Below the pieces are notes generated by a model. It worked only from the letters and a program-made list of their open reading frames with translations, did not search any database and was not told the DNA's origin. Source: an uncultured Ignavibacteria bacterium (lineage in GTDB: Bacteria > Bacteroidota > Ignavibacteria > Kapaibacteriales > Kapaibacteriaceae). Taken from it: 64,000 nucleotides of DNA. Shown in pieces: positions 271 to 44,881 of this stretch. Each line of letters starts with the position of its first letter. Position 1 is the first letter of the stretch. A program made the position numbers and the translations under genes. Where the stretch lies: the NCBI GenBank assembly GCA_937870915.1, contig CALMZQ010000027.1, positions 1,289-65,288 on the forward strand. Direction: 5' to 3'.

Positions 271-279
271 GGCGAAGAA

Positions 280-336
280 ATGACTAAATGACGTTATGAC
301 TAAATGACGTTATGACAATTATGACGCTATGACGTT
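280..336. repeat. Seven tandem ATGACnnn units (period 8, one of 9)
   Basis: ATGAC starts at 280, 288, 296, 304, 312, 321 and 329. The array begins 9 nt after the helicase stop. The same family occurs at 15488-15511 and 15711-15794. Confidence 0.9.
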
Positions 337-362
337 GTAATCCCAAAAAAACAAAAACGACG

Positions 363-402
363 AATGGTGCATTGGCTCTTGCCTCTGCACCATTTTTTTT
401 TT
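363..402. terminator. Bidirectional intrinsic terminator between convergent genes
   Basis: Stem AATGGTGCA (363-371) pairs with TGCACCATT (386-394), followed by T10. An A/T-rich run upstream serves the minus strand. Confidence 0.75.
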
Positions 403-430
403 GCGCACAACTCAGTACCTGCGCTACAGA

Positions 431-463
431 GTAACTAGTAACTGAGTAACTAGTAACTAGTAA
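431..463. repeat. GTAACTA heptamer array (about 5 units)
   Basis: Sequence is gtaactagtaactgagtaactagtaactagtaat. The TAG stop of the minus-strand gene (457-459) lies inside it. The same family occurs at 42240-42346. Confidence 0.9.
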
Positions 464-15710: not shown

Positions 15711-15794
15711 GTCATCATTCATTTGTCATCAATCACAACGTCATAATTGTCATAACGTCATAATTGTCATTACGTCATAACGTCATTACGTCAT
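15711..15794. repeat. About 9 GTCATnnn units (ATGAC family on the minus strand)
   Basis: Read on the minus strand, ATGACGTA/ATGACGTT/ATGACAATT units begin 3 nt after the ftsZ stop. They share ATGACAATTATGACG..ATGACGTTGT with 280-336. Confidence 0.85.
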
Positions 15795-15797
15795 TTC

Positions 15798-17144
15798 TTA
15801 ATCCATGATCTTCCGCAAGAACGCTGGCTGGTTTCCACCGGCTCCGGCAGCCTTACGAATAGGAGATGGATAGCCCCCTGTTGCTTCATTTGCGCTTGGT
15901 TGGACAATTGGAACACTACCGGATGAGGGTGGTTCTTCGCGTGGCATACCGGCTGTGCTGCGTTGTTCCAACTCGCGCTGTTTGCGGATGTAGGCCGGGA
16001 CGTTCACATCGTTCATATCAACGTCTTGCGATGTTGAAGGGGCGAGTGGTGATGGTTGAGTTGTTGCTGCCGGACGATACGAGTCTGGTGCTGCTTCTGG
16101 CTCGGGTGCCGGACGGACAATCTCGATAACGGGAGCATAGGATGTGGTTGACGTTGCTGTAGGCACGGACTTCTTTTCGTCTTGACGTCGGAAGCCGGTA
16201 GCAACAACGGTGATGGAGATCTCATCTTCCATACTCTCGTCAACAACAACACCGTGAATGAGGTTGACCTCATCGCCGGCGGCCTTTTCGATTGCAGAAA
16301 CGGCTTCACTCACTTCAAACATGGTCATGTTCGAACTGCCGGTGATATTCACAAGAAGACCTTGTGCACCATAGATCGACATGCCTTCGAGGATCGGGGA
16401 GTTCAACGCATTCTGAGCTGCTTCAATGGCACGGTGCTCGCCCGTTGCCATACCAATACCCATGAGTGCATCACCCATACCGCTCATCACGGTACGAACG
16501 TCTGCAAAGTCCACATTCACATATCCAACACCAGAAATGATGTCGGCAATTCCCTTCGTTGCATTATAGAGGACCGTGTCCACCATTGCAAGTGCATTGG
16601 CGAAGGTCACATCCTTGTCTACAACAGTAAGAATGCGTTGGTTAGGGATCACGATGAGTGCATCAACGTGCTCTCGGAGATCCTTAATGCCATTTTCGGC
16701 AATGGACATCCGACGCTTGGATTCATAGGCAAAGGGCTTTGTAACAATGCCCACAACCAGTGCTCCAAGCTCACGGCCAACACGTGCGATCACCGGTGCT
16801 GCTCCGGTTCCCGTACCGCCGCCCATACCAGCCGTCACAAAGATCATATCGCTTCCTTGGAGCGCATCGTAGACGTCATCGATGCTCTCCTCCACAGAAG
16901 CTCTCCCCTTACTAGGATCTGCCCCTGCTCCAAGGCCGCGCGTAGCGTCCTTTCCGAGCTGAAGTTTGATCCCCGCAGGGTTATTCATGAGTGCCTGGCG
17001 ATCTGTATTCGCCGCGACAAATTCAACGCCGTCGAGTCCGCGTGCGATCATAGTTCGCACTGCGTTTCCGCCGCCGCCGCCAACGCCAACAACGCGAATT
17101 CTCGCGTCTGACGTAAAAGATGATGTATCCAACTCGATGGCCAT
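15798..17144 (-). CDS. ftsZ: Cell division protein FtsZ
   Basis: Tubulin signature [13 protein letters not shown], a full FtsZ core, and a Pro/Ser-rich linker ending in the conserved C-terminal peptide. Confidence 0.95.
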
Positions 17145-27989: not shown

Positions 27990-28050
27990 ATGCCCACCTT
28001 TGTGTTACTATGAATGAGAGGCATACCCCTCCATCTCGGTTACATTACCT

Positions 28051-28113
28051 GTTCGCTGTTCGTTGTTCGCTGTTCACTGTTCGCTATTCACTATTCGCTA
28101 TTCACTCTTCGCG
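28051..28113. repeat. Nine (G/A/C)TTC(G/A)CT heptamers at an exact 7-bp period
   Basis: gttcgct gttcgtt gttcgct gttcact gttcgct attcact attcgct attcact cttcgcg. The last codons and the TAG stop (28091-28093) of the minus-strand gene lie inside the array. Confidence 0.9.
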
Positions 28114-28924
28114 CTATCCAAAGGTCCAACCCACCGGCACCACCCGGACGGTTAGATGCGAACAGCTGCGATCCGTCAGGTAGGACGATACAATCGCTTT
28201 CATCGAACTCGGTGTTGAGCCAGTCGAGTGGGATTGGCTCCTGCCAAGCCCCATCCCTGAAGACACTAAAGAAAATATCAAACCCACCCTTGCCACCGAT
28301 TCCGTTGGAGGCAAAGATTAATGTATCGACAGAGAGGAACGTTGGACTGATCTCGTCTTCGAGGGAATTCACAGACCTACCAAGGTTGATAGGCGTACTC
28401 CACGTTAGGTCGTCACGACGATCACTTATCCAGAGGTCGAGTCCACCCTCGCCCCCTACCCTATCACTAACAACTACCAGGCGTGTCCCATCGGGCGATA
28501 TTGCCGGATGTGAAACAAAGAAGGGGCCATTCACTGCGGTAAGTGGGTGACCTAGATTGAGGGCATTGTTATCTCTCGGCACAGTTACAATGCCGGGGAA
28601 GGACTGTTCCTCAAAACGCCCGTACGCTACACCTACTGCCTCTCCGTTTGCAGAAAAAGAGACGAACCCACGCTGTTGTTTTGCGTGGTTGAAGGTGCCG
28701 GTGAATGGTTCTGCTTTTGAGCCTGACTGCATTGTGCAACGATACACGGCGGCTTCTCCGGACCGCTCTGTTGTAAAAACCACTGAGCCGGTGAGGGGGT
28801 CCATGTTGGGTGCATATTCGGAGGACGTGGAATTACACGATTCAACAGGTACGGGTGGTTGTACTGCTGAGTTGGTCAATCCAAGGAGGATGGACCCTAT
28901 AACCAATGTCGATGCGAACATCAT
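28091..28924 (-). CDS. WD40-like (PD40/TolB-type) beta-propeller repeat protein, periplasmic
   Basis: Repeated SPDG..L.F.S.R.GG.GG.DLW motifs and a signal peptide from MMFASTLVIGS. ATG 28924 overlaps the queE stop (ATGA). Confidence 0.7.
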   Translation of the reverse strand: MMFASTLVIGSILLGLTNSAVQPPVPVESCNSTSSEYAPNMDPLTGSVVFTTERSGEAAVYRCTMQSGSKAEPFTGTFNHAKQQRGFVSFSANGEAVGVAYGRFEEQSFPGIVTVPRDNNALNLGHPLTAVNGPFFVSHPAISPDGTRLVVVSDRVGGEGGLDLWISDRRDDLTWSTPINLGRSVNSLEDEISPTFLSVDTLIFASNGIGGKGGFDIFFSVFRDGAWQEPIPLDWLNTEFDESDCIVLPDGSQLFASNRPGGAGGLDLWIARRVNSE

Positions 28925-29625
28925 ACGCCCCTTGTCTCCGGAGACCAAACGAACTTGTGCATCTGGAGCTGGAACCGCACGTTGAGTTTGTCCTCAAGGA
29001 TCCATTCAACAAGCTCTACAAAGGTGAGCTTTCCGAATACACAGGACATCAATACCGCTGCACACTGCGTATCGAGGTTGTATGCACGCACACATTCGCG
29101 GGCATATTCGTAGTCCACCCGCGAGGCGATAACAAATTTCACTTCGTCGTGAGGTCGAAGTGCCGTGAGGTTTTCTCGACGGTTGCGAGACTCCATCTTG
29201 GAATCCGGGCACTTCACGTCCATGATGCAAATCACACGCGGATCCAACACGGAAATGTCCTTGTGTCCGCCGGTCTCAATCGCCACCGTGTAGCCCATAT
29301 CGCACAGAACTGTCATCAACGGAACTACGGCAGGTTGTTCAAGGGGCTCTCCACCCGTGAATTCAATAAACGGGATCCCGATGCGCTCGATCTCCGAAAT
29401 GATGTCTTCCCCCGTCATCATCTTCTCTGCGGTTCGATGGTCCAAGGCATATGGAGTGTCACACCAAACGCAACGAAGCGCACAGCCCTGAAGTCGAATG
29501 AAGACGCATGGGAGTCCGGCGCGCGTGCCTTCGCCTTGGATAGAGGTGAAGATCTCGTTGACGTTGAACACGGACAGACGTGGGTCAGAGGTGATGTCAG
29601 TGCTATGGAGCGGGGCTGTGGACAT
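28921..29625 (-). CDS. queE: 7-carboxy-7-deazaguanine synthase (radical SAM)
   Basis: EIFTSIQGEGTRAGLPCVFIRLQGCALRCVWCDT motif. Confidence 0.85.
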   Translation of the reverse strand: MSTAPLHSTDITSDPRLSVFNVNEIFTSIQGEGTRAGLPCVFIRLQGCALRCVWCDTPYALDHRTAEKMMTGEDIISEIERIGIPFIEFTGGEPLEQPAVVPLMTVLCDMGYTVAIETGGHKDISVLDPRVICIMDVKCPDSKMESRNRRENLTALRPHDEVKFVIASRVDYEYARECVRAYNLDTQCAAVLMSCVFGKLTFVELVEWILEDKLNVRFQLQMHKFVWSPETRGV

Positions 29626-39600: not shown

Positions 39601-41273
39601 AAAGAACCCACCTCATCTTGGCATACACTGTGTTCGTAACGGGGGCATCAGCTGCACCCGTACCAACCGATGACGCCTCGTTCTACCTTCGCCTGGCGCG
39701 TTCCTTGGAGTCCTTTGGAGCCGTGTTCCGCGAGGTGAATACAACGTATGTCGATGAAGTGGATCCGGAAGATCTTGTCGAAGTGGGCATTGATGCCATG
39801 CTTCGGCACCTCGACCCGTATTCAACGTACATGAAGTTTGATGAGACCGATGATCTAGATATGCTGTCAACCGGAGCATACGTAGGATTCGGGATCTCCG
39901 TTGGACGCCGAGATAGCCTGCTCACAATCATCGACATCCGTCAGGATGGACCCGCAAAGAGGTCCGGCATCCGTATTGGTGATCATCTCATCGCCATCGA
40001 TGCAGTTCGCACTGATACAATGTCGCCACAAAGCCTTCGCCCACATACTCGAGGCGCGGCAGGGTCTTCTGCCAAGCTCCGTGTATTTCGAGACGGTCGC
40101 AAGGACACGATCGAAGTAGTTGTTCGCAGAGAGGAACTACCCGTTGAGACCGTTGGGCATGCAGAGTTATTACCCGGTGGTATCGGATATGTAAGGCTTG
40201 CCCGTTTTGCTCGTGGCACGGGGCTTGCCGTTCGTCGTGCATTGAGCGATTTGCAAGAACAAACAGATCTCCAGGGCTTTATTCTCGATCTGCGTGATAA
40301 TCCAGGCGGACTTCTTGATGCAGCCGTGGACGTTGTTGAGCTCTTTGTCCCAAACAATAGCGTTATCGTAACCACTCGTGGTAGAGATGGGAACGAGTAT
40401 CGCTCCTACTCATCGAATGAAGAGCCTATTGAACCAACACTCCCACTTGCAGTACTCATTAATGAACGCAGTGCAAGTGCCAGTGAGATCGTTGCCGGTG
40501 CAATCCAGGACCTCGACCGCGGAATCATCATCGGTAAACGCTCGTACGGTAAGGGGCTAGTTCAGACAATGGTCCCGCTACCGAATGAAGCCACGCTCAA
40601 ACTCACCACATCTCGCTACTTCACCCCTTCGGGCAGAAGCATTCAACGTATCGACTATCGAACGCGGCGAGCACCCATTGGTGAGCCGAATAACGCCATT
40701 GCCGGGGCCGACTCAATTCCCCACGTTTACAAAACTTCCAATGGCCGATCTGTTGCCGAACTCCATGGCATCGACCCTGATTCAGCCGTAGCTGACTCAG
40801 TGTTGCCAGCGCTCATTTCCTATCTCGATTCTGAATATGTCTTCGGACGCTTCGCAACGATCTACGCAGCCACTATAGATTCCCTACCCTCAACATTCTC
40901 AGTTGAAAAGGGGCTGATCGAACGCTTTGTTGCATTCGTTGATTCGCTCCCACCGGCTAAACGATCGCCGTTTCTGGCAGAACTGGCTTCGGCAAGAACC
41001 CGCGCATTGGCAAGTGGATGGTCGTCAACATCCTTGAAATCCCTTGAACAGGCCGAGAAAGCGCTGGAGAGAGAGATCGGCCGCACCATCCGCCTGAATC
41101 AAACCCTTGTTGGAGAGCGCTTGGAGCAGGAGATTCGCACACGTTTCGGCACCGATAAGATCCGCGAATCGCGTGCACTGCGATTCGATCCGCTTGTTCG
41201 CGCAGCCAAGAACATTCTGTCTTCTCCCCAATATCGTCTGATATTGGCAACACAAGTCCCCGCAGATCAGTAA
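39597..41273 (+). CDS. S41-family carboxy-terminal processing peptidase with PDZ domain
   Basis: PDZ (GPAKRSGIRIGDHLIAID) and S41 catalytic region (DLRDNPGGLL, SASASEIVAGA..KRSYGKG). Confidence 0.85.
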   Translation: MKRTHLILAYTVFVTGASAAPVPTDDASFYLRLARSLESFGAVFREVNTTYVDEVDPEDLVEVGIDAMLRHLDPYSTYMKFDETDDLDMLSTGAYVGFGISVGRRDSLLTIIDIRQDGPAKRSGIRIGDHLIAIDAVRTDTMSPQSLRPHTRGAAGSSAKLRVFRDGRKDTIEVVVRREELPVETVGHAELLPGGIGYVRLARFARGTGLAVRRALSDLQEQTDLQGFILDLRDNPGGLLDAAVDVVELFVPNNSVIVTTRGRDGNEYRSYSSNEEPIEPTLPLAVLINERSASASEIVAGAIQDLDRGIIIGKRSYGKGLVQTMVPLPNEATLKLTTSRYFTPSGRSIQRIDYRTRRAPIGEPNNAIAGADSIPHVYKTSNGRSVAELHGIDPDSAVADSVLPALISYLDSEYVFGRFATIYAATIDSLPSTFSVEKGLIERFVAFVDSLPPAKRSPFLAELASARTRALASGWSSTSLKSLEQAEKALEREIGRTIRLNQTLVGERLEQEIRTRFGTDKIRESRALRFDPLVRAAKNILSSPQYRLILATQVPADQ

Positions 41274-41369
41274 CTTTGCAGCCCGCATCGTGATTCGTCA
41301 CGTTTGCACGAAGGGAAGACATCGTACGTCTCCCCCTTGCTTCCTATTTCGTTATCCAGAGGTCTGCCC

Positions 41370-42233
41370 ATGAGGATCACCAAACAATACACCAATCGCG
41401 AGAGCCAATCGCTCGACAAATACCTTCAGGAGATCGGCCGTGTGGATCTTCTTACAGGTAACGATGAGATCGATCTCGCTCAGGCGATCAGGCGTGGAGG
41501 CTTTGAAGGCTCCATGGCGCTTGAGCGTCTTGTGAAAGCGAACCTTCGCTTTGTGGTGTCGGTGGCCAAGCAGTATCAAAATCAGGGCCTCTCCCTTGGT
41601 GACCTTATCAACGAAGGCAACCTCGGTCTGATCAAAGCAGCTAAACGATTTGATGAAACGCGCGGCTTTAAATTCATCTCCTACGCCGTATGGTGGATCC
41701 GTCAGTCGATCCTCCAAGCGCTTGCAGAACAATCACGCATCGTTCGCCTCCCGCTCAACCGCGTTGGGGCTCTGAACAAGATCGGTAAGAAGTTCTCTGA
41801 ACTCGAGCAACAATACGAGCGTGAACCAACCGCCGCAGAACTTGCAGAACAACTCGAGATGTCTATCGCAGAGATCTCCGAAACGATTAAGATTTCCGGA
41901 CGTCACCTCTCTGTAGATGCGCCGTTTGTGCAAGGTGAAGACAACCGACTTCTCGACATCCTTCCGAACGATCAGCAACCACCGCCGGACAGCGAACTCA
42001 TGCGCGAATCACTTCGCGTTGAAGTTCAACAAGTACTCAACACTCTCAGCGACCGCGAAGCTGAAGTGATTCGCCTGTACTTCGGTCTTGACGATCAGCA
42101 AGCTCTCACACTCGAAGAGATCGGCGAGAAATTCAACCTCACCCGCGAACGTGTACGCCAGATCAAGGAAAAGGCCATTCGCCGCCTTCGCCACGCAAGT
42201 CGCTCAAAGGCACTTAGAACATATCTGGGTTAA
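41370..42233 (+). CDS. rpoD: Primary-type RNA polymerase sigma factor, 287 aa, lacking region 1.1
   Basis: Regions 1.2-4.2 are recognisable ([41 protein letters not shown]). The size matches the short Bacteroidetes sigma-A type. Confidence 0.85.
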
Positions 42234-42239
42234 AGCTAC

Positions 42240-42346
42240 AAGTAACGAGTTACTAGTTACATGTTACTAGTTACGAGTATCCTGTTTCTTGCAACTTGTA
42301 ACTAGTAACTAGTAACTAGTAACTCGTAACTAGTAACTCGCAACTC
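42240..42346. repeat. Inverted arrays of the GTAACTA heptamer filling the rpoD-rimM spacer
   Basis: The left arm carries GTTACTAG-type units (42248-42285). The right arm has 7 GTAAC units at an exact 7-bp period (starts 42298 to 42340). The arms are mutually complementary (CGAGTTACTAGTTAC is shared). Confidence 0.9.
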
Positions 42347-42356
42347 GCATCTAACC

Positions 42357-42902
42357 ATGGTTTTCACCGAATACATCGGCGTCATAGCCCGGACCCATGG
42401 TCTTGATGGGACGATGTTCCTCATGGACACCGTGGGTATCCCGCAGGGGCTACGCGAAGGGGCAACGGTCGGAATCGGCTACTCTCGAGATTTTGCAAAG
42501 ACGTTCACTATCGACGCCTTTGATGCAACGCCTATGCGCACAACCCTTCGCGTGAAGGAAATTGCTAGTGCGGACGAAGCGCAAGCATTTGTGGAACAGG
42601 CGGTCTATTGCAGACCTGAAGATGTTGGCCTCAATGATGACGACCGATTTCGAATAGGCGACATCGAAGGGTGTGCTGTTATCACCAAGGACGGCACACA
42701 CATAGGAACTGTTTCCGATGTGTGGCTCATGCCTGCAAACGACGTATGGGTTGTGACGCTTCCAGACGGGCGCACCGTTCCATTCCCTGTGATCGATGAT
42801 GTGATTCTCAACGTGGACACCGATTCAAGGCGGATTGTTGTGGAACTCATCCCCGGACTACTTGACCTTGGCTCTCCGGCGGCCGAGGATCGCGATGAGT
42901 GA
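42357..42902 (+). CDS. rimM: 16S rRNA processing protein RimM
   Basis: RimM N-terminal beta-barrel (IGVIARTHGLDG) plus a PRC barrel. Synteny with trmD. Confidence 0.85.
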   Translation: MVFTEYIGVIARTHGLDGTMFLMDTVGIPQGLREGATVGIGYSRDFAKTFTIDAFDATPMRTTLRVKEIASADEAQAFVEQAVYCRPEDVGLNDDDRFRIGDIEGCAVITKDGTHIGTVSDVWLMPANDVWVVTLPDGRTVPFPVIDDVILNVDTDSRRIVVELIPGLLDLGSPAAEDRDE

Positions 42903-43596
42903 ACCCAAACTCCGCATAGATATTGTCTGTGTGGTTCCACAGATACTAGAATCATTCGTATCTACGTCGATCATTGGCAGAGGTCAAGAAAAGGGGCTCG
43001 TTGAGATCCATATGCACAATCTCCACGACTATGCAACGGATCGCTACAAACACATAGACGACTCCCCCTATGGCGGAGGTGCCGGCATGGTGATCCAATG
43101 TGAGCCCGTGTTTGCCTGCATCGAAGGCCTCTTGGCTCAACGTCATTACGACGATGTGATCTACCTCTGTCCTGACGGTAGAGTTCTTACCCAAGACACG
43201 TGCAACGAACTTTCGCTAAAGGGTTCGCTGATTCTCCTATGTGGACATTACAAGGGAATTGATCAGCGTATTCGTGATGTACTCGTAACGCGTGAGATCT
43301 CTGTGGGTGACTACGTGCTCACGGGTGGCGAGATCGCTGCGGCAGTACTCACAGACGCAATCGTGCGACTCATCCCTGGCGTTGTTGGAGATGCAGAAAG
43401 TGTACTTGATGACTCATTCATGGATGGGCTTCTCGATGCTCCACTCTACACAAAGCCGGCAGACTTCCGCGGAATGATCGTGCCCGACGTGCTCACCAGC
43501 GGCAACCACAAGCTGATCCGTGTATGGCGAAATGAACAGTCGCTTGCAAAGACAAGAGAACGCAGACCCGATCTGCTAGAGGGGCGAGATACATGA
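42895..43596 (+). CDS. trmD: tRNA (guanine37-N1)-methyltransferase
   Basis: SPOUT knot motifs (LLCGHYKGIDQR, SVGDYVLTGGE). ATG 42895 overlaps the rimM end. Confidence 0.9.
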   Translation: MSEPKLRIDIVCVVPQILESFVSTSIIGRGQEKGLVEIHMHNLHDYATDRYKHIDDSPYGGGAGMVIQCEPVFACIEGLLAQRHYDDVIYLCPDGRVLTQDTCNELSLKGSLILLCGHYKGIDQRIRDVLVTREISVGDYVLTGGEIAAAVLTDAIVRLIPGVVGDAESVLDDSFMDGLLDAPLYTKPADFRGMIVPDVLTSGNHKLIRVWRNEQSLAKTRERRPDLLEGRDT

Positions 43597-44450
43597 GCTT
43601 CTACCCTGAGGTTACGTGTGCTCTGCCCAATCGCCACGGCAAGCCCCTTCACATTACTACAACATTTCCAGAGAACACTATCGGCTGTCCGCTGATATTG
43701 ATTCTCCATGGATTCAAGGGGTTTCGCAACTACAGCTTTCTGCCCTGGATCGCCCAACATGCCGCAGCGAATGGCATGATCGCTGTTCGGTTTTGCTTCT
43801 CCGGAAACGGCATGAACGGAACGTCGTGGCTGGTACAAGACCTTGATGCTTTTGCATCAAACACGATCTCGCAGAAGGTAGACGACGTGCATGATATGAT
43901 CAGTCTTGTGCAGACTGACGATCAGTTTGCGTCGCTTCGTGATCGGTGGAACGGCCAGATCTATCTCTTGGGACACTCACGCGGTGGCGGCATTGCCCAG
44001 GTTGTATCACGAGAACTCATTGAAGCCAACCGTATTCCAATCGTGAAAACTGCTGTCTACAACTCTGTTGGAACCTGGATTCGCTGGACGGATCGTCAGC
44101 GAACGGAGTGGCTGTCAAAGGGTGCGCTGTCATTCACCAATGAGCGCACCAAGCAGATCGTGCAGATGAATGCGTCCTATGTAGAAGACATCGAAGCTAA
44201 CGCAGATCGGCTCTCACTCGATATGGCAGCTTCCGTTTGTGGAGACCGCCTTGCATTCTTCCATGCCGTGAACGATCTCACGGTCCCTTTGTCGGAGATC
44301 GTTGCACTTCGATCCCGCACGGAAACAAGTGCACCACTGTTTACCATTCCCAATACAACACATACCTTTGGTATGACTCATCCCGTGGATCGCATCACCC
44401 ATGGATTTGTAACTGTCCTCAACGAGAGTTTTACGTGGCTACTTCAATGA
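43593..44450 (+). CDS. Alpha/beta-fold hydrolase
   Basis: LILHGFKG and nucleophile elbow GHSRGG. Confidence 0.7.
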   Translation: MSFYPEVTCALPNRHGKPLHITTTFPENTIGCPLILILHGFKGFRNYSFLPWIAQHAAANGMIAVRFCFSGNGMNGTSWLVQDLDAFASNTISQKVDDVHDMISLVQTDDQFASLRDRWNGQIYLLGHSRGGGIAQVVSRELIEANRIPIVKTAVYNSVGTWIRWTDRQRTEWLSKGALSFTNERTKQIVQMNASYVEDIEANADRLSLDMAASVCGDRLAFFHAVNDLTVPLSEIVALRSRTETSAPLFTIPNTTHTFGMTHPVDRITHGFVTVLNESFTWLLQ

Positions 44451-44881
44451 ACAGAACTCGTGCTCTCACGATCGGACTTGTTACAACGCTCGCATTGGCC
44501 GGCTGCGAGCTCTTTGTTGTTGGAGGGGGCTCTCGAAAACCACAGCAGATCGAACGAAGTCAACGTTCAGCTCCCGGCGTGGTTCATTTGTTCAAGGCAG
44601 AAGTTGATAGTGGCAATACAACTGCTGCAACGGAATTGATGCTTAACACGAACGGACGGCCTCTACTTGCTGTAGAAAAATTTGAGCTTTCCGACGATCT
44701 GCAGCGATGGAAAACCATCATGGCTCAAAAGCCGATCTCAGAAACTACAGTGGACACACTGAGTGATAGCACGCACAGCGTGCGTATCACGTTGGACTAT
44801 GTTCGGACCATGCAGTTCTCCACGCTCCGCAAGCAGGGCTTGTGGTGGGTGACAAAGATCCAAGATGCGCCTAAGCGCTAA
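44447..44881 (+). CDS. Small lipoprotein, unknown function
   Basis: MNRTRALTIGLVTTLALAGC lipobox. The ATG overlaps the upstream stop (ATGA). Confidence 0.55.
   Translation: MNRTRALTIGLVTTLALAGCELFVVGGGSRKPQQIERSQRSAPGVVHLFKAEVDSGNTTAATELMLNTNGRPLLAVEKFELSDDLQRWKTIMAQKPISETTVDTLSDSTHSVRITLDYVRTMQFSTLRKQGLWWVTKIQDAPKR

What the first reader, a model, noticed from the sequence alone, without database searches (positions are those of the whole stretch)
42240..42346. rpoD-rimM spacer consists almost entirely of inverted heptamer arrays able to form a long hairpin
The array starts 7 nt after the rpoD TAA. A left arm of GTTACTAG-type units (about 42248-42285) faces a right arm of seven GTAAC units at an exact 7-bp period (42298-42346). 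The arms share the 15-mer CGAGTTACTAGTTAC in reverse complement, so a stem of about 30 bp is possible. No U-tract follows, and the rimM ATG is 11 nt beyond the array.

The structure could act as a processing site, an mRNA stabiliser, or a U-tract-less terminator between the primary sigma factor gene and the rimM-trmD ribosome-maturation genes.
Basis: seen in the sequence. Interest (0 to 1): 0.5.

Follow-up and report, generated by a model that had tools for sequence, protein, structure and literature searches.

The report
Gene-less heptamer-repeat hairpin between rpoD and rimM
The long hairpin between the sigma-factor gene and rimM is real, but it is one copy of several hundred short-repeat arrays scattered through this Kapabacteria genome, and each array family shares its repeat unit with a small four-helix-bundle gene that sits inside the same kind of hairpin.

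Summary
The 123-nt rpoD-rimM spacer consists of about 5 GTTAC-type units facing 7-8 GTAAC units. It folds at -57.5 kcal/mol (z -8.9), has no U-tract, and ends 11 nt before the rimM ATG.

It is not a device specific to this operon:
- The 3.3-Mb genome holds about 357 arrays of 7-9 nt units, including 46 same-family inverted pairs.
- Of 28 genus genomes that keep rpoD-rimM adjacent, only this one and its nearest species carry the element. The others have a short spacer, an overlap, or a classic terminator.
- All families obey one fixed polarity: 59 neighbouring pairs to 1.

Following a lead from earlier reports of this scan on other phyla, I tested and confirmed a link to PF05635 (S23p/Avd-like four-helix-bundle) genes. 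These genes sit inside hairpins built from the same units, their protein clades track the unit, and their presence predicted which genomes carry which arrays.

My best reading is a gene-less copy of such a cassette. On the rpoD-rimM-trmD transcript it probably acts as an RNase III site or a 3' stabiliser. The element is a new member of a known but unexplained kind: STRR, Xanthomonas and TAACTGA heptamer repeats.

The parts
41304..42233 (+). Primary-type sigma-70 gene (rpoD/sigA, 309 aa) upstream of the element.
   Evidence: Pfam regions 1.2, 2, 3 and 4. The best NCBIfam matches are RpoD models. The protein is 90-99% identical across the genus.
42241..42278 (+). Left arm: about 5 heptamer units of GTTAC type (unit X, read towards the middle of the gap). 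The outer units are degenerate.
42279..42292 (+). Loop or centre of the foldback. It is a unique sequence not shared with the other elements of the family.
   Evidence: the loops of all pairs differ.
42293..42347 (+). Right arm: 7-8 heptamer units of GTAAC type (the reverse complement of X), with the last two units degenerate.
42228..42355 (+). Whole predicted RNA stem-loop. It includes an outer 5-bp pairing of the last rpoD codons (GGUUA) with UAACC just before the rimM AUG.
   Evidence: MFE -57.5 kcal/mol, z -8.9.
42357..42902 (+). rimM (181 aa).
   Evidence: Pfam RimM and PRC-barrel domains; TIGR02273 at 83 bits, above its cut-off.
42835..43596 (+). trmD. The true start is probably downstream of the called TTG, because the family match begins at residue 27.
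429..463 (+). Second array of the same GTAAC family in the window. It abuts the stop of the minus-strand gene 457-1413.

Best explanation
The spacer holds a gene-less foldback element of a genome-wide repeat system. It is not a regulator specific to this operon.

**The system.** It consists of tandem arrays of 7-8 nt units (here GTTACNN), placed as inward-facing inverted arrays at the edges of intergenic gaps. Each repeat family of the genome has one gene-bearing copy, in which the loop of the same hairpin carries a PF05635 (S23p/Avd-like, pentameric four-helix-bundle) gene. For the GTAAC family that copy lies on contig C150 (28325-28947).

**History.** The rpoD-rimM copy arose in the common ancestor of this species and its nearest sister species. 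It has persisted there while its copy numbers changed by slippage.

**Shown:** family membership, lineage-specific presence, fixed polarity, and the link between array families and cognate PF05635 genes.

**Inferred:**
- The PF05635 protein recognises its own repeat unit.
- rimM-trmD are still read from the rpoD promoter.
- On that transcript the roughly 45-bp stem acts like the stem of a 23S rRNA intervening sequence. It would be an RNase III cleavage site that separates the rpoD and rimM-trmD messages and leaves rpoD with a protective 3' stem.
For: **Family membership**
- The 19-mer pattern gives 221 hits in the own genome against 0 for the control.
- TRF finds 357 arrays of period 7-9.
- There are 22 GTAAC-family, 17 ATGAC-family and 7 AAYAGCG-family inverted pairs, with median MFE of -47 to -74 kcal/mol.

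**Lineage-specific presence**
- The rpoD-rimM spacers of 28 genus genomes carry arrays only in G000 and G031.
- G031 shares only 75-84% nucleotide identity with the window, yet it has an array at every array site of the window.
- Copy numbers differ between G000, G008 and G031.

**Polarity**
- Neighbouring arrays read X..rcX 59 times and rcX..X once.
- Across the genus, GTTAC..GTAAC is found in four genomes and GTAAC..GTTAC in none of 29.

**PF05635 link**
- In G000, 6 of 7 genes have arrays beside them (5 on both sides) whose units are the genome's main families.
- 44 of 58 PF05635 genes examined in the genus are flanked on both sides by short tandem arrays, nearly all mirror-image copies of one unit.
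- Protein clades track the unit.
- The GTAAC-type orthologue occurs only in four GTAAC-rich genomes.
- AGTGAC arrays were predicted from cassettes and found in 7 of 7 predicted genomes. Four genomes predicted negative had 0 or 1 hit, and all 8 genomes without PF05635 had none.
- The cassette RNA folds with its arms paired around the ORF.

**Effect on the transcript**
- RNase III is encoded in the genome.
- RNase III cuts the stem of the S23p-bearing IVS of Coxiella, which also carries strain-variable heptamer repeats (PMC4990558).
- No promoter-like or terminator-like site lies in the spacer.
Against: - There are no transcript data, so processing, stabilisation and read-through are all untested.
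- The agreement between protein clade and repeat unit could come from joint inheritance of a gene and its flanks rather than from binding.
- The loops of gene-less elements are all different, and no target duplications were seen. How arrays reach new sites is therefore unknown, and 'gene-less copy' is a structural description rather than a demonstrated derivation.
- G003 and G033 are rich in GTAAC arrays but lack the close orthologue. G003 has a more distant PF05635 gene between GTAAC-type arrays.
- The two arms of a pair share unit variants only weakly (0.40 against 0.30 for shuffled partners, p 0.02), so perfect pairing is not strongly maintained.
- S23p may not even be translated in Coxiella (PMC4990558).
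Confidence: 0.68

Rival explanations
1. The arrays are plain simple-sequence repeats. They arise and are kept by replication slippage alone in neutral DNA next to gene ends. The hairpin is an accident of two neighbouring arrays, and PF05635 genes are merely often flanked by such arrays without any functional tie.
For: - Copy numbers change in steps of 7 or 8 nt between close relatives.
- Array ends are degenerate, as in microsatellites.
- Arrays join their flanks at short homologies.
- The two arms evolve nearly independently.
- Heptamer repeats are the commonest long SSR class in bacteria (Mrazek 2007, as cited in PMC4679880).
Against: - Slippage does not explain the 59:1 polarity, nor the 0 of 29 genomes with the opposite arrangement.
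- It does not explain the one-to-one match between a genome's repeat families and its PF05635 cassettes, nor the successful prediction.
- MutS is present throughout the genus, so loss of mismatch repair does not explain the patchy distribution.
Confidence: 0.14
2. The hairpin is a selected, locus-specific regulatory element of the rpoD-rimM-trmD operon. It would be a U-tract-less terminator or attenuator that uncouples sigma-factor and ribosome-maturation gene expression.
For: - The stem is very stable and fills the spacer.
- It is retained in two species that share only about 78% nucleotide identity.
- Five other genus members have a classic intrinsic terminator at the same junction, so uncoupling these genes can be useful.
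Against: - It is absent from 26 of 28 genus genomes with the same gene order. In G007 the two genes overlap.
- It is one of 46 similar hairpins at unrelated loci.
- It has no U-tract, and the spacer offers no promoter-like site for rimM.
- All array sites in the window, not only this one, are retained in G031, so retention is a property of the family rather than of this locus.
Confidence: 0.08
3. The right arm, GUAAC units ending 11 nt before the AUG, is a 5'-leader binding array for a translational regulator of rimM. This is what was proposed for TAACTGA repeats in Beggiatoaceae. The left arm would act only as an anti-sequence that masks it.
For: - Arrays next to start codons nearly always read GTAAC in the sense of the gene (25 to 1 within 20 nt). 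This matches the 'forward' TAACTGA repeats just upstream of start codons in PMC4679880.
- The genome also holds a GTAACTGA octamer variant.
- Bacteroidota-type translation does not rely on a Shine-Dalgarno sequence (my own knowledge).
Against: - The same polarity holds next to stop codons and in convergent gaps. The rule is therefore geometric and not tied to 5' leaders.
- ORF starts were called crudely, and GTAAC carries TAA in all frames, which biases start calls towards this result (my own caveat).
- No binding protein has been tested.
Confidence: 0.1

Closest known systems
Xanthomonas GGGAATC and Nostoc GGGGA(C/T)T heptamer repeats (Rehm et al. 2015, PMC4692102)
   Same: - Dispersed intergenic tandem heptamers.
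- Enriched between co-oriented and convergent genes.
[quoted passage not shown] This is the same geometric polarity found here.
- 70-75 convergent pairs per Xanthomonas genome, which can form stem-loops.
- Mostly transcribed.
   Different: - Those units are G-rich and form G-quadruplexes. The units here (GTTACTA, ATGACGNN, CGAATAG) have no G-tracts.
- That paper draws no link to PF05635 genes.
TAACTGA heptamer direct repeats of Beggiatoaceae, Cyanobacteria and some Bacteroidetes (MacGregor 2015, PMC4679880)
   Same: - The unit is nearly the same: GTAACTA here, and GTAACTGA octamers also occur in this genome.
- Patchy phyletic distribution.
- Forward orientation just upstream of start codons, reverse after stop codons.
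- Indels in 7-nt steps between strains.
   Different: - In the Beggiatoa genome 169 sets are direct and only one is inverted, with 2-6 copies per set. Here inverted pairs are common and arrays are longer.
- That study proposed S1, Csp or CsrA as binders, not a four-helix-bundle protein.
23S rRNA intervening sequences carrying an S23p ORF (Coxiella, Leptospira; PMC4990558)
   Same: - A PF05635 gene lies in the loop of a long stem formed by terminal inverted repeats.
- Heptamer direct repeats with strain-variable copy number sit beside the ORF.
- The stem is an RNase III substrate.
   Different: - The elements here are not in rRNA genes.
- Most copies, including the rpoD-rimM one, carry no gene.
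- Their arms are made entirely of tandem units.
Cyanobacterial STRR (short tandemly repeated repetitive) heptamers
   Same: Several unrelated heptamer families per genome, intergenic, dispersed and of unknown function.
   Different: - A different phylum with different units.
- As far as I know, neither the polarity rule nor a gene-bearing form has been described for STRR.
REP/BIME and REPIN elements of Enterobacteria and Pseudomonas
   Same: - Dispersed intergenic palindromes that lie after stop codons.
- Can stabilise upstream mRNA.
- Occur as inverted doublets.
   Different: - REPs are single imperfect palindromes, not tandem arrays.
- They depend on a RAYT (Y1 transposase). Y1 transposase genes occur in 28 of 29 genus genomes here and do not track the arrays.

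Membership tests
Dispersed heptamer SSR arrays (STRR / LSSR / Xanthomonas-type) | Tandem head-to-tail units of about 7 nt at many unrelated intergenic loci of one genome. | tested here: met
   357 arrays of period 7-9 and 82-86 GTAAC-family loci, with 0 control hits.
Dispersed heptamer SSR arrays (STRR / LSSR / Xanthomonas-type) | Copy number varies between close relatives in steps of one unit. | tested here: met
   G000, G008 and G031 differ at the rpoD-rimM site and at three other sites.
Xanthomonas-type convergent heptamer pairs (PMC4692102) | Fixed strand rule: sense strand after stop codons, antisense strand before start codons, and convergent pairs. | tested here: met
   Neighbouring pairs 59:1, edge analysis, and 0 of 29 genomes with the opposite order.
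Xanthomonas-type convergent heptamer pairs (PMC4692102) | G-tract units able to form G-quadruplexes. | tested here: not met
   The units GTTACTA/GTAACTA contain single G residues only.
PF05635 (S23p/Avd-like) foldback cassette, gene-less form | The same genome holds a PF05635 gene enclosed by inverted arrays of the same unit and the same polarity. | tested here: met
   G000 contig C150: (TAGTTAC)n at 28325-28375, the gene at 28435-28833, and (GTAACTC)n at 28830-28947.
PF05635 (S23p/Avd-like) foldback cassette, gene-less form | Presence of the cognate gene and abundance of its unit go together across genomes. | tested here: met
   GTAAC family, AATAGCG family, and the AGTGAC prediction: 7 of 7 predicted positives found, 0-1 hits in four predicted negatives, and none in all 8 genomes without PF05635. 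Exceptions are G003 and G033 for GTAAC.
PF05635 (S23p/Avd-like) foldback cassette, gene-less form | The gene-less copy derives from the gene-bearing one, shown by shared internal ends. | tested here: not met
   Loops of the gene-less pairs are all different and do not resemble the cassette's inner ends.
23S rRNA intervening sequence | Inserted in a 23S rRNA helix and excised by RNase III. | tested here: not met
   The element lies between protein-coding genes. Cleavage by RNase III cannot be tested with these tools.
Intrinsic (rho-independent) terminator | GC-rich stem followed by a U-tract. | tested here: not met
   No T-run follows the right arm and the scan finds no terminator-like site in the spacer. 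Relatives with a true terminator at this junction look quite different.
REP/REPIN | Associated RAYT (Y1 transposase) whose presence tracks the repeats. | tested here: not met
   PF01797 is found in 28 of 29 genus genomes regardless of arrays.
MITE | Conserved internal sequence, terminal inverted repeats and target-site duplication. | tested here: not met
   Internal sequences differ between copies. No duplication is visible when the filled sites are compared with the empty sites of relatives.
Known RNA families (Rfam 15) | A match at the gathering score. | tested here: not met
   Only sub-threshold matches to plant and animal miRNA hairpin models, on both strands.

The most novel reading that the evidence does not exclude
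The dispersed heptamer and octamer arrays are cis-sites for cognate PF05635 pentamers. Each ring would bind about five tandem units of its own family, as RNA or single-stranded DNA. This genome would then run about seven parallel specificity classes over roughly 300 sites. At rpoD-rimM, binding of the GTAAC-class protein to the arms would decide whether the stem forms and is cut by RNase III, which would set the ratio of sigma factor to rimM-trmD expression. If so, the decades-old STRR/heptamer-repeat puzzle has a protein partner, and the 23S IVS 'S23p' proteins have a function.
Probability: 0.22. Interest if true: 0.85.

Novelty: new member of a known kind. Interest (0 to 1): 0.55.

Why it matters
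Taken alone, the rpoD-rimM hairpin is an ordinary copy of a dispersed repeat and should not be annotated as a dedicated regulator.

The system it belongs to is more interesting. Tandem heptamer repeats have been reported in cyanobacteria, Xanthomonas, Beggiatoaceae and Bacteroidetes for decades without an explanation.

This genus gives a clean natural experiment:
- Closely related genomes with and without arrays.
- Several repeat families per genome.
- One PF05635 four-helix-bundle gene enclosed by each family's own hairpin.
- A successful prediction of array content from cassette flanks.

This makes a concrete hypothesis directly testable at the bench: the S23p/Avd-like pentamer recognises its own repeat unit.

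There is also a practical point. These arrays break short-read assemblies. The G008 assembly stops at this very spacer, and many G000 contigs begin or end in arrays.

Tried and rejected
- **Rfam.** Only sub-threshold miRNA-hairpin matches on both strands. These are generic long-hairpin hits and were rejected.
- **Promoter and terminator scan of 41200-44600.** Nothing in the spacer. By eye there is no Bacteroidota-type TAnnTTTG motif either.
- **RAYT/IS200-type Y1 transposase as mobiliser.** Present in 28 of 29 genus genomes and does not track the arrays.
- **Loss of mismatch repair as the cause.** MutS domain V is present in 26 of 29 genomes, including all array-rich ones of good completeness.
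- **Reverse transcriptase as an Avd-style partner.** G000 has a single weak RT match, not near any cassette. Not pursued.
- **Selection for arm complementarity.** Arms of a pair share unit variants only slightly more than random partners do. Mixed-family pairs, which cannot fold well, keep the polarity. Hairpin formation is therefore not the conserved property.
- **Polarity explained by the sense of the neighbouring gene.** Rejected, because it holds at start-side and stop-side edges alike.
- **Gene-centred flanking as the primary unit** (a gene between rcX and X, giving 5'-3' pairing of ordinary mRNAs). There is no clear excess at gene-sized distances.
- **Other cargo in the loops.** Of 10 inverted same-unit pairs with 150-2500 nt loops, 5 hold PF05635, one holds DUF559, and the rest hold ordinary or unknown ORFs. 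A profile built from 53 four-helix-bundle proteins found no further members in G000.

Full report
**1.
- The sigma-factor ORF ends with TAA at 42231-42233, and rimM starts at 42357.
- The 123-nt spacer has about five GTTAC-type heptamers (42241-42278), a 14-nt centre, and seven to eight GTAAC heptamers at a strict 7-nt period (42293-42347).
- The arms are 45 nt long and 87% complementary.
- As RNA the region folds at -57.5 kcal/mol, against -27.1 +/- 3.4 for dinucleotide shuffles (z -8.9). The other strand folds just as well.
- No T-run follows the right arm.

**2. It is one member of a very large family.**
- The 12-mer GTAACTAGTAAC recurs at 431-464 in the window.
- In the whole 3.32-Mb assembly (233 contigs, GC 51%), a 19-mer of the unit with up to 2 mismatches hits 221 times. 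The reversed control hits 0 times.
- Tandem Repeats Finder gives 628 repeat loci, of which 357 have periods of 7-9 nt. They fall into a few families: AATAGCG/AACAGCG, GTAAC + 2-3 nt, ATGAC + 3 nt, TGTGCTAG, plus 12- and 13-mers.
- 46 same-family inverted pairs fold into long hairpins, with median MFE of -47 to -74 kcal/mol. The rpoD-rimM copy is the third most stable per nucleotide of the 22 GTAAC pairs.
- The organism is a Kapabacteria MAG; its nearest named relative is a Candidatus Kapaibacterium.

**3. Comparison with relatives.** rpoD-rimM adjacency is kept in all 28 genus genomes that have rimM. Their spacers fall into these groups:

| Genomes | rpoD-rimM junction |
|---|---|
| G000 (own), G031 (nearest species) | 123 nt and 150 nt, filled by the arrays |
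| G007 | rpoD TGA overlaps the rimM TTG |
| Five genomes | 78-81 nt with a classic GC stem plus T-run terminator |
| The rest | 15-48 nt, plain |

- The G031 copy also folds (-55.9 kcal/mol, z -5.3) but has different copy numbers and unit variants.
- G031 is a different species, with only 75-84% nucleotide identity over the syntenic 60 kb. Even so, every array site of the window has an array at the orthologous gap in G031, sometimes with another unit.
- Downstream of the gene at 15798-17144, G000, G008 and G031 have ATGAC octamers. G007 has a GTTAC/GTAAC pair starting at the same nucleotide. G038 has a plain terminator.
- Arrays are therefore long-lived at a site while their content turns over.
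- G008 is about 95% identical to G000, and its assembly breaks at this spacer.

**4. Position and polarity.** I used a crude ORF map of 2660 ORFs.
- Arrays occupy 71 of 378 convergent gaps, 119 of 1657 tandem gaps and 28 of 392 divergent gaps.
- In tandem gaps they start at a median of -2 nt from the upstream stop codon.
- At 230-500 in the window, arrays lie between each stop codon and a conserved bidirectional terminator, that is, inside 3' UTRs.
- Every family has one fixed arrangement. Read from either flank towards the middle, the unit is GTTAC, ATGAC or AAYAGCG.
- Inverted pairs run 21-22 to 0, 13-17 to 0 and 5-7 to 0 for the three families. Over all neighbours less than 120 nt apart, the count is 59 to 1.
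- The rule holds beside start codons as well as stop codons and in 13 of 15 mixed-family pairs.
- Across the genus, GTTAC..GTAAC occurs in G000, G031, G007 and G008. GTAAC..GTTAC occurs in none of 29 genomes.
- The same rule was published for Xanthomonas GGGAATC repeats (PMC4692102). It also matches the orientations described for TAACTGA repeats (PMC4679880). I found no mechanism for it.

**5. The link to four-helix-bundle genes.** Earlier reports of this scan, on Acidobacteria, Gemmatimonadota, CPR and others, claimed that such hairpins are the gene-less form of cassettes carrying PF05635 genes. I tested this here.
- PF05635 genes occur in 21 of 29 genus genomes, and G000 has seven.
- Six of the seven have short tandem arrays beside them, five of them on both sides. 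Their units are the genome's main families, and the polarity is the same as in the gene-less pairs. The six units are GTTAC, GAATAGC, TGTGCTAG, ATGAC, a 13-mer and a 12-mer.
- Over the genus, 44 of 58 such genes are flanked on both sides by tandem arrays of period 6-13, nearly all mirror-image copies of one unit.
- In G000 only ten inverted same-unit pairs have loops of 150-2500 nt. Five of them hold a PF05635 gene.
- The protein tree groups the genes by flanking unit, with 100/99 and 100/100 support for the GTTAC and CGAAYAG clades. Joint inheritance of gene and flanks would also give this result.
- Stronger evidence comes from distribution. The GTAAC-type orthologue (68% identity or more) exists only in G000, G008, G031 and G007, all rich in GTAAC arrays.
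- AATAGCG arrays abound only in the three genomes that have that orthologue with that unit.
- A prediction made from cassette flanks succeeded. AGTGAC arrays should abound in G001, G003, G011, G013, G014, G033 and G035 and be missing from G000, G007, G008 and G031. The seven predicted positives had 21-310 hits and the four predicted negatives had 0-1 hits. All eight genomes without PF05635 had 0.
- Exceptions: G003 and G033 have GTAAC arrays without the close orthologue.
- The protein matches PDB 2RLD, an entry with five chains (E 2e-14). The cassette RNA folds with its arms paired around the ORF.

**6. What the element does at rpoD-rimM (inferred).**
- No promoter-like or terminator-like site lies in the spacer. 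Most relatives have spacers too short for either. rimM-trmD are therefore most likely read from the rpoD promoter through the element.
- The stem has two 16-bp helices and is the type of duplex RNase III cuts. The genome encodes RNase III.
- In the Coxiella S23p-bearing IVS, the enzyme cuts in the middle of the terminal stem, beside strain-variable heptamer repeats (PMC4990558).
- I therefore rank processing, which would leave a 3' stem on rpoD mRNA, above termination.
- The outer pairing of GGUUA (the last rpoD codons) with UAACC (just before the AUG) suggests that a ribosome finishing rpoD would open the foot of the stem. This is speculation.

**7. Leads that failed.**
- Rfam gave only sub-threshold hairpin matches.
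- Y1 transposase does not track the arrays.
- MutS loss does not explain the distribution.
- The single reverse transcriptase match is not near any cassette.
- Arm co-variation is weak.
- Gene-centred flanking shows no clear excess.

**8. Verdict.**
- The finding is a true structure but an ordinary copy of a dispersed element. It is a new member of a known, unexplained kind.
- The value of this window lies in the genus-level evidence tying each repeat family to its own PF05635 gene.
- The scan had already noted that link on other DNA. Here it is supported by a prediction that succeeded.

Noticed in passing
window 278-463: A convergent gap holds ATGAC octamers (278-336) directly after the left gene's stop, then a conserved bidirectional terminator (about 340-395), then GTAAC heptamers (429-463) running into the stop of the minus-strand gene 457-1413. 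In G031 the left array is GTTAC-type instead.
   Followed up: partly
window 15733-15794: An ATGAC-type octamer array starts right after the stop of the minus-strand gene 15798-17144. At the same nucleotide G007 has a GTTAC/GTAAC inverted pair, G003 has 18-mer repeats and G038 has a plain terminator. The site is conserved but its content is replaced.
   Followed up: partly
window 28049-28112: CGAAYAG heptamers supply the last codons and the stop of the gene 28091-28948 (minus strand). After the stop there are about 6.5 units in G000, about 12.5 in G008 and about 7 in G031. G007 has no array, and its gene ends in a similar sequence that looks like a proto-repeat.
   Followed up: partly
genus loci L115, L117, L121, L122, L124 (rpoD-rimM spacers): Five genus members have a classic GC-stem plus T-run terminator between rpoD and rimM. 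In G007 (L113) the rpoD TGA overlaps the rimM TTG. Coupling of these genes therefore differs widely within one genus.
   Followed up: no
G000 contig C219:66818-67456 (L214): A DUF559 (Vsr-like endonuclease fold) gene of 135 aa sits in the loop of an inverted TGTCATT/AATGACA array pair. This is a second kind of cargo in the same hairpin build.
   Followed up: partly
protein tree: One well-supported PF05635 clade has no detectable flanking arrays (G011 L199, G014 L202, G001 L195/L196, G035 L206, G033 L172, G003 L191). It may be a different kind of four-helix-bundle gene.
   Followed up: no
G008 contig C153 and many G000 contig ends (C70:1-119, C189:7-36, C24:19331-19392): Short-read assemblies break inside these arrays. 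G008 lacks rimM and the spacer for this reason, so array counts in draft genomes are underestimates.
   Followed up: partly
window 42835-42902: The called trmD ORF overlaps rimM by 68 nt, but the TrmD family match starts at residue 27. The true start is probably near the rimM stop.
   Followed up: no
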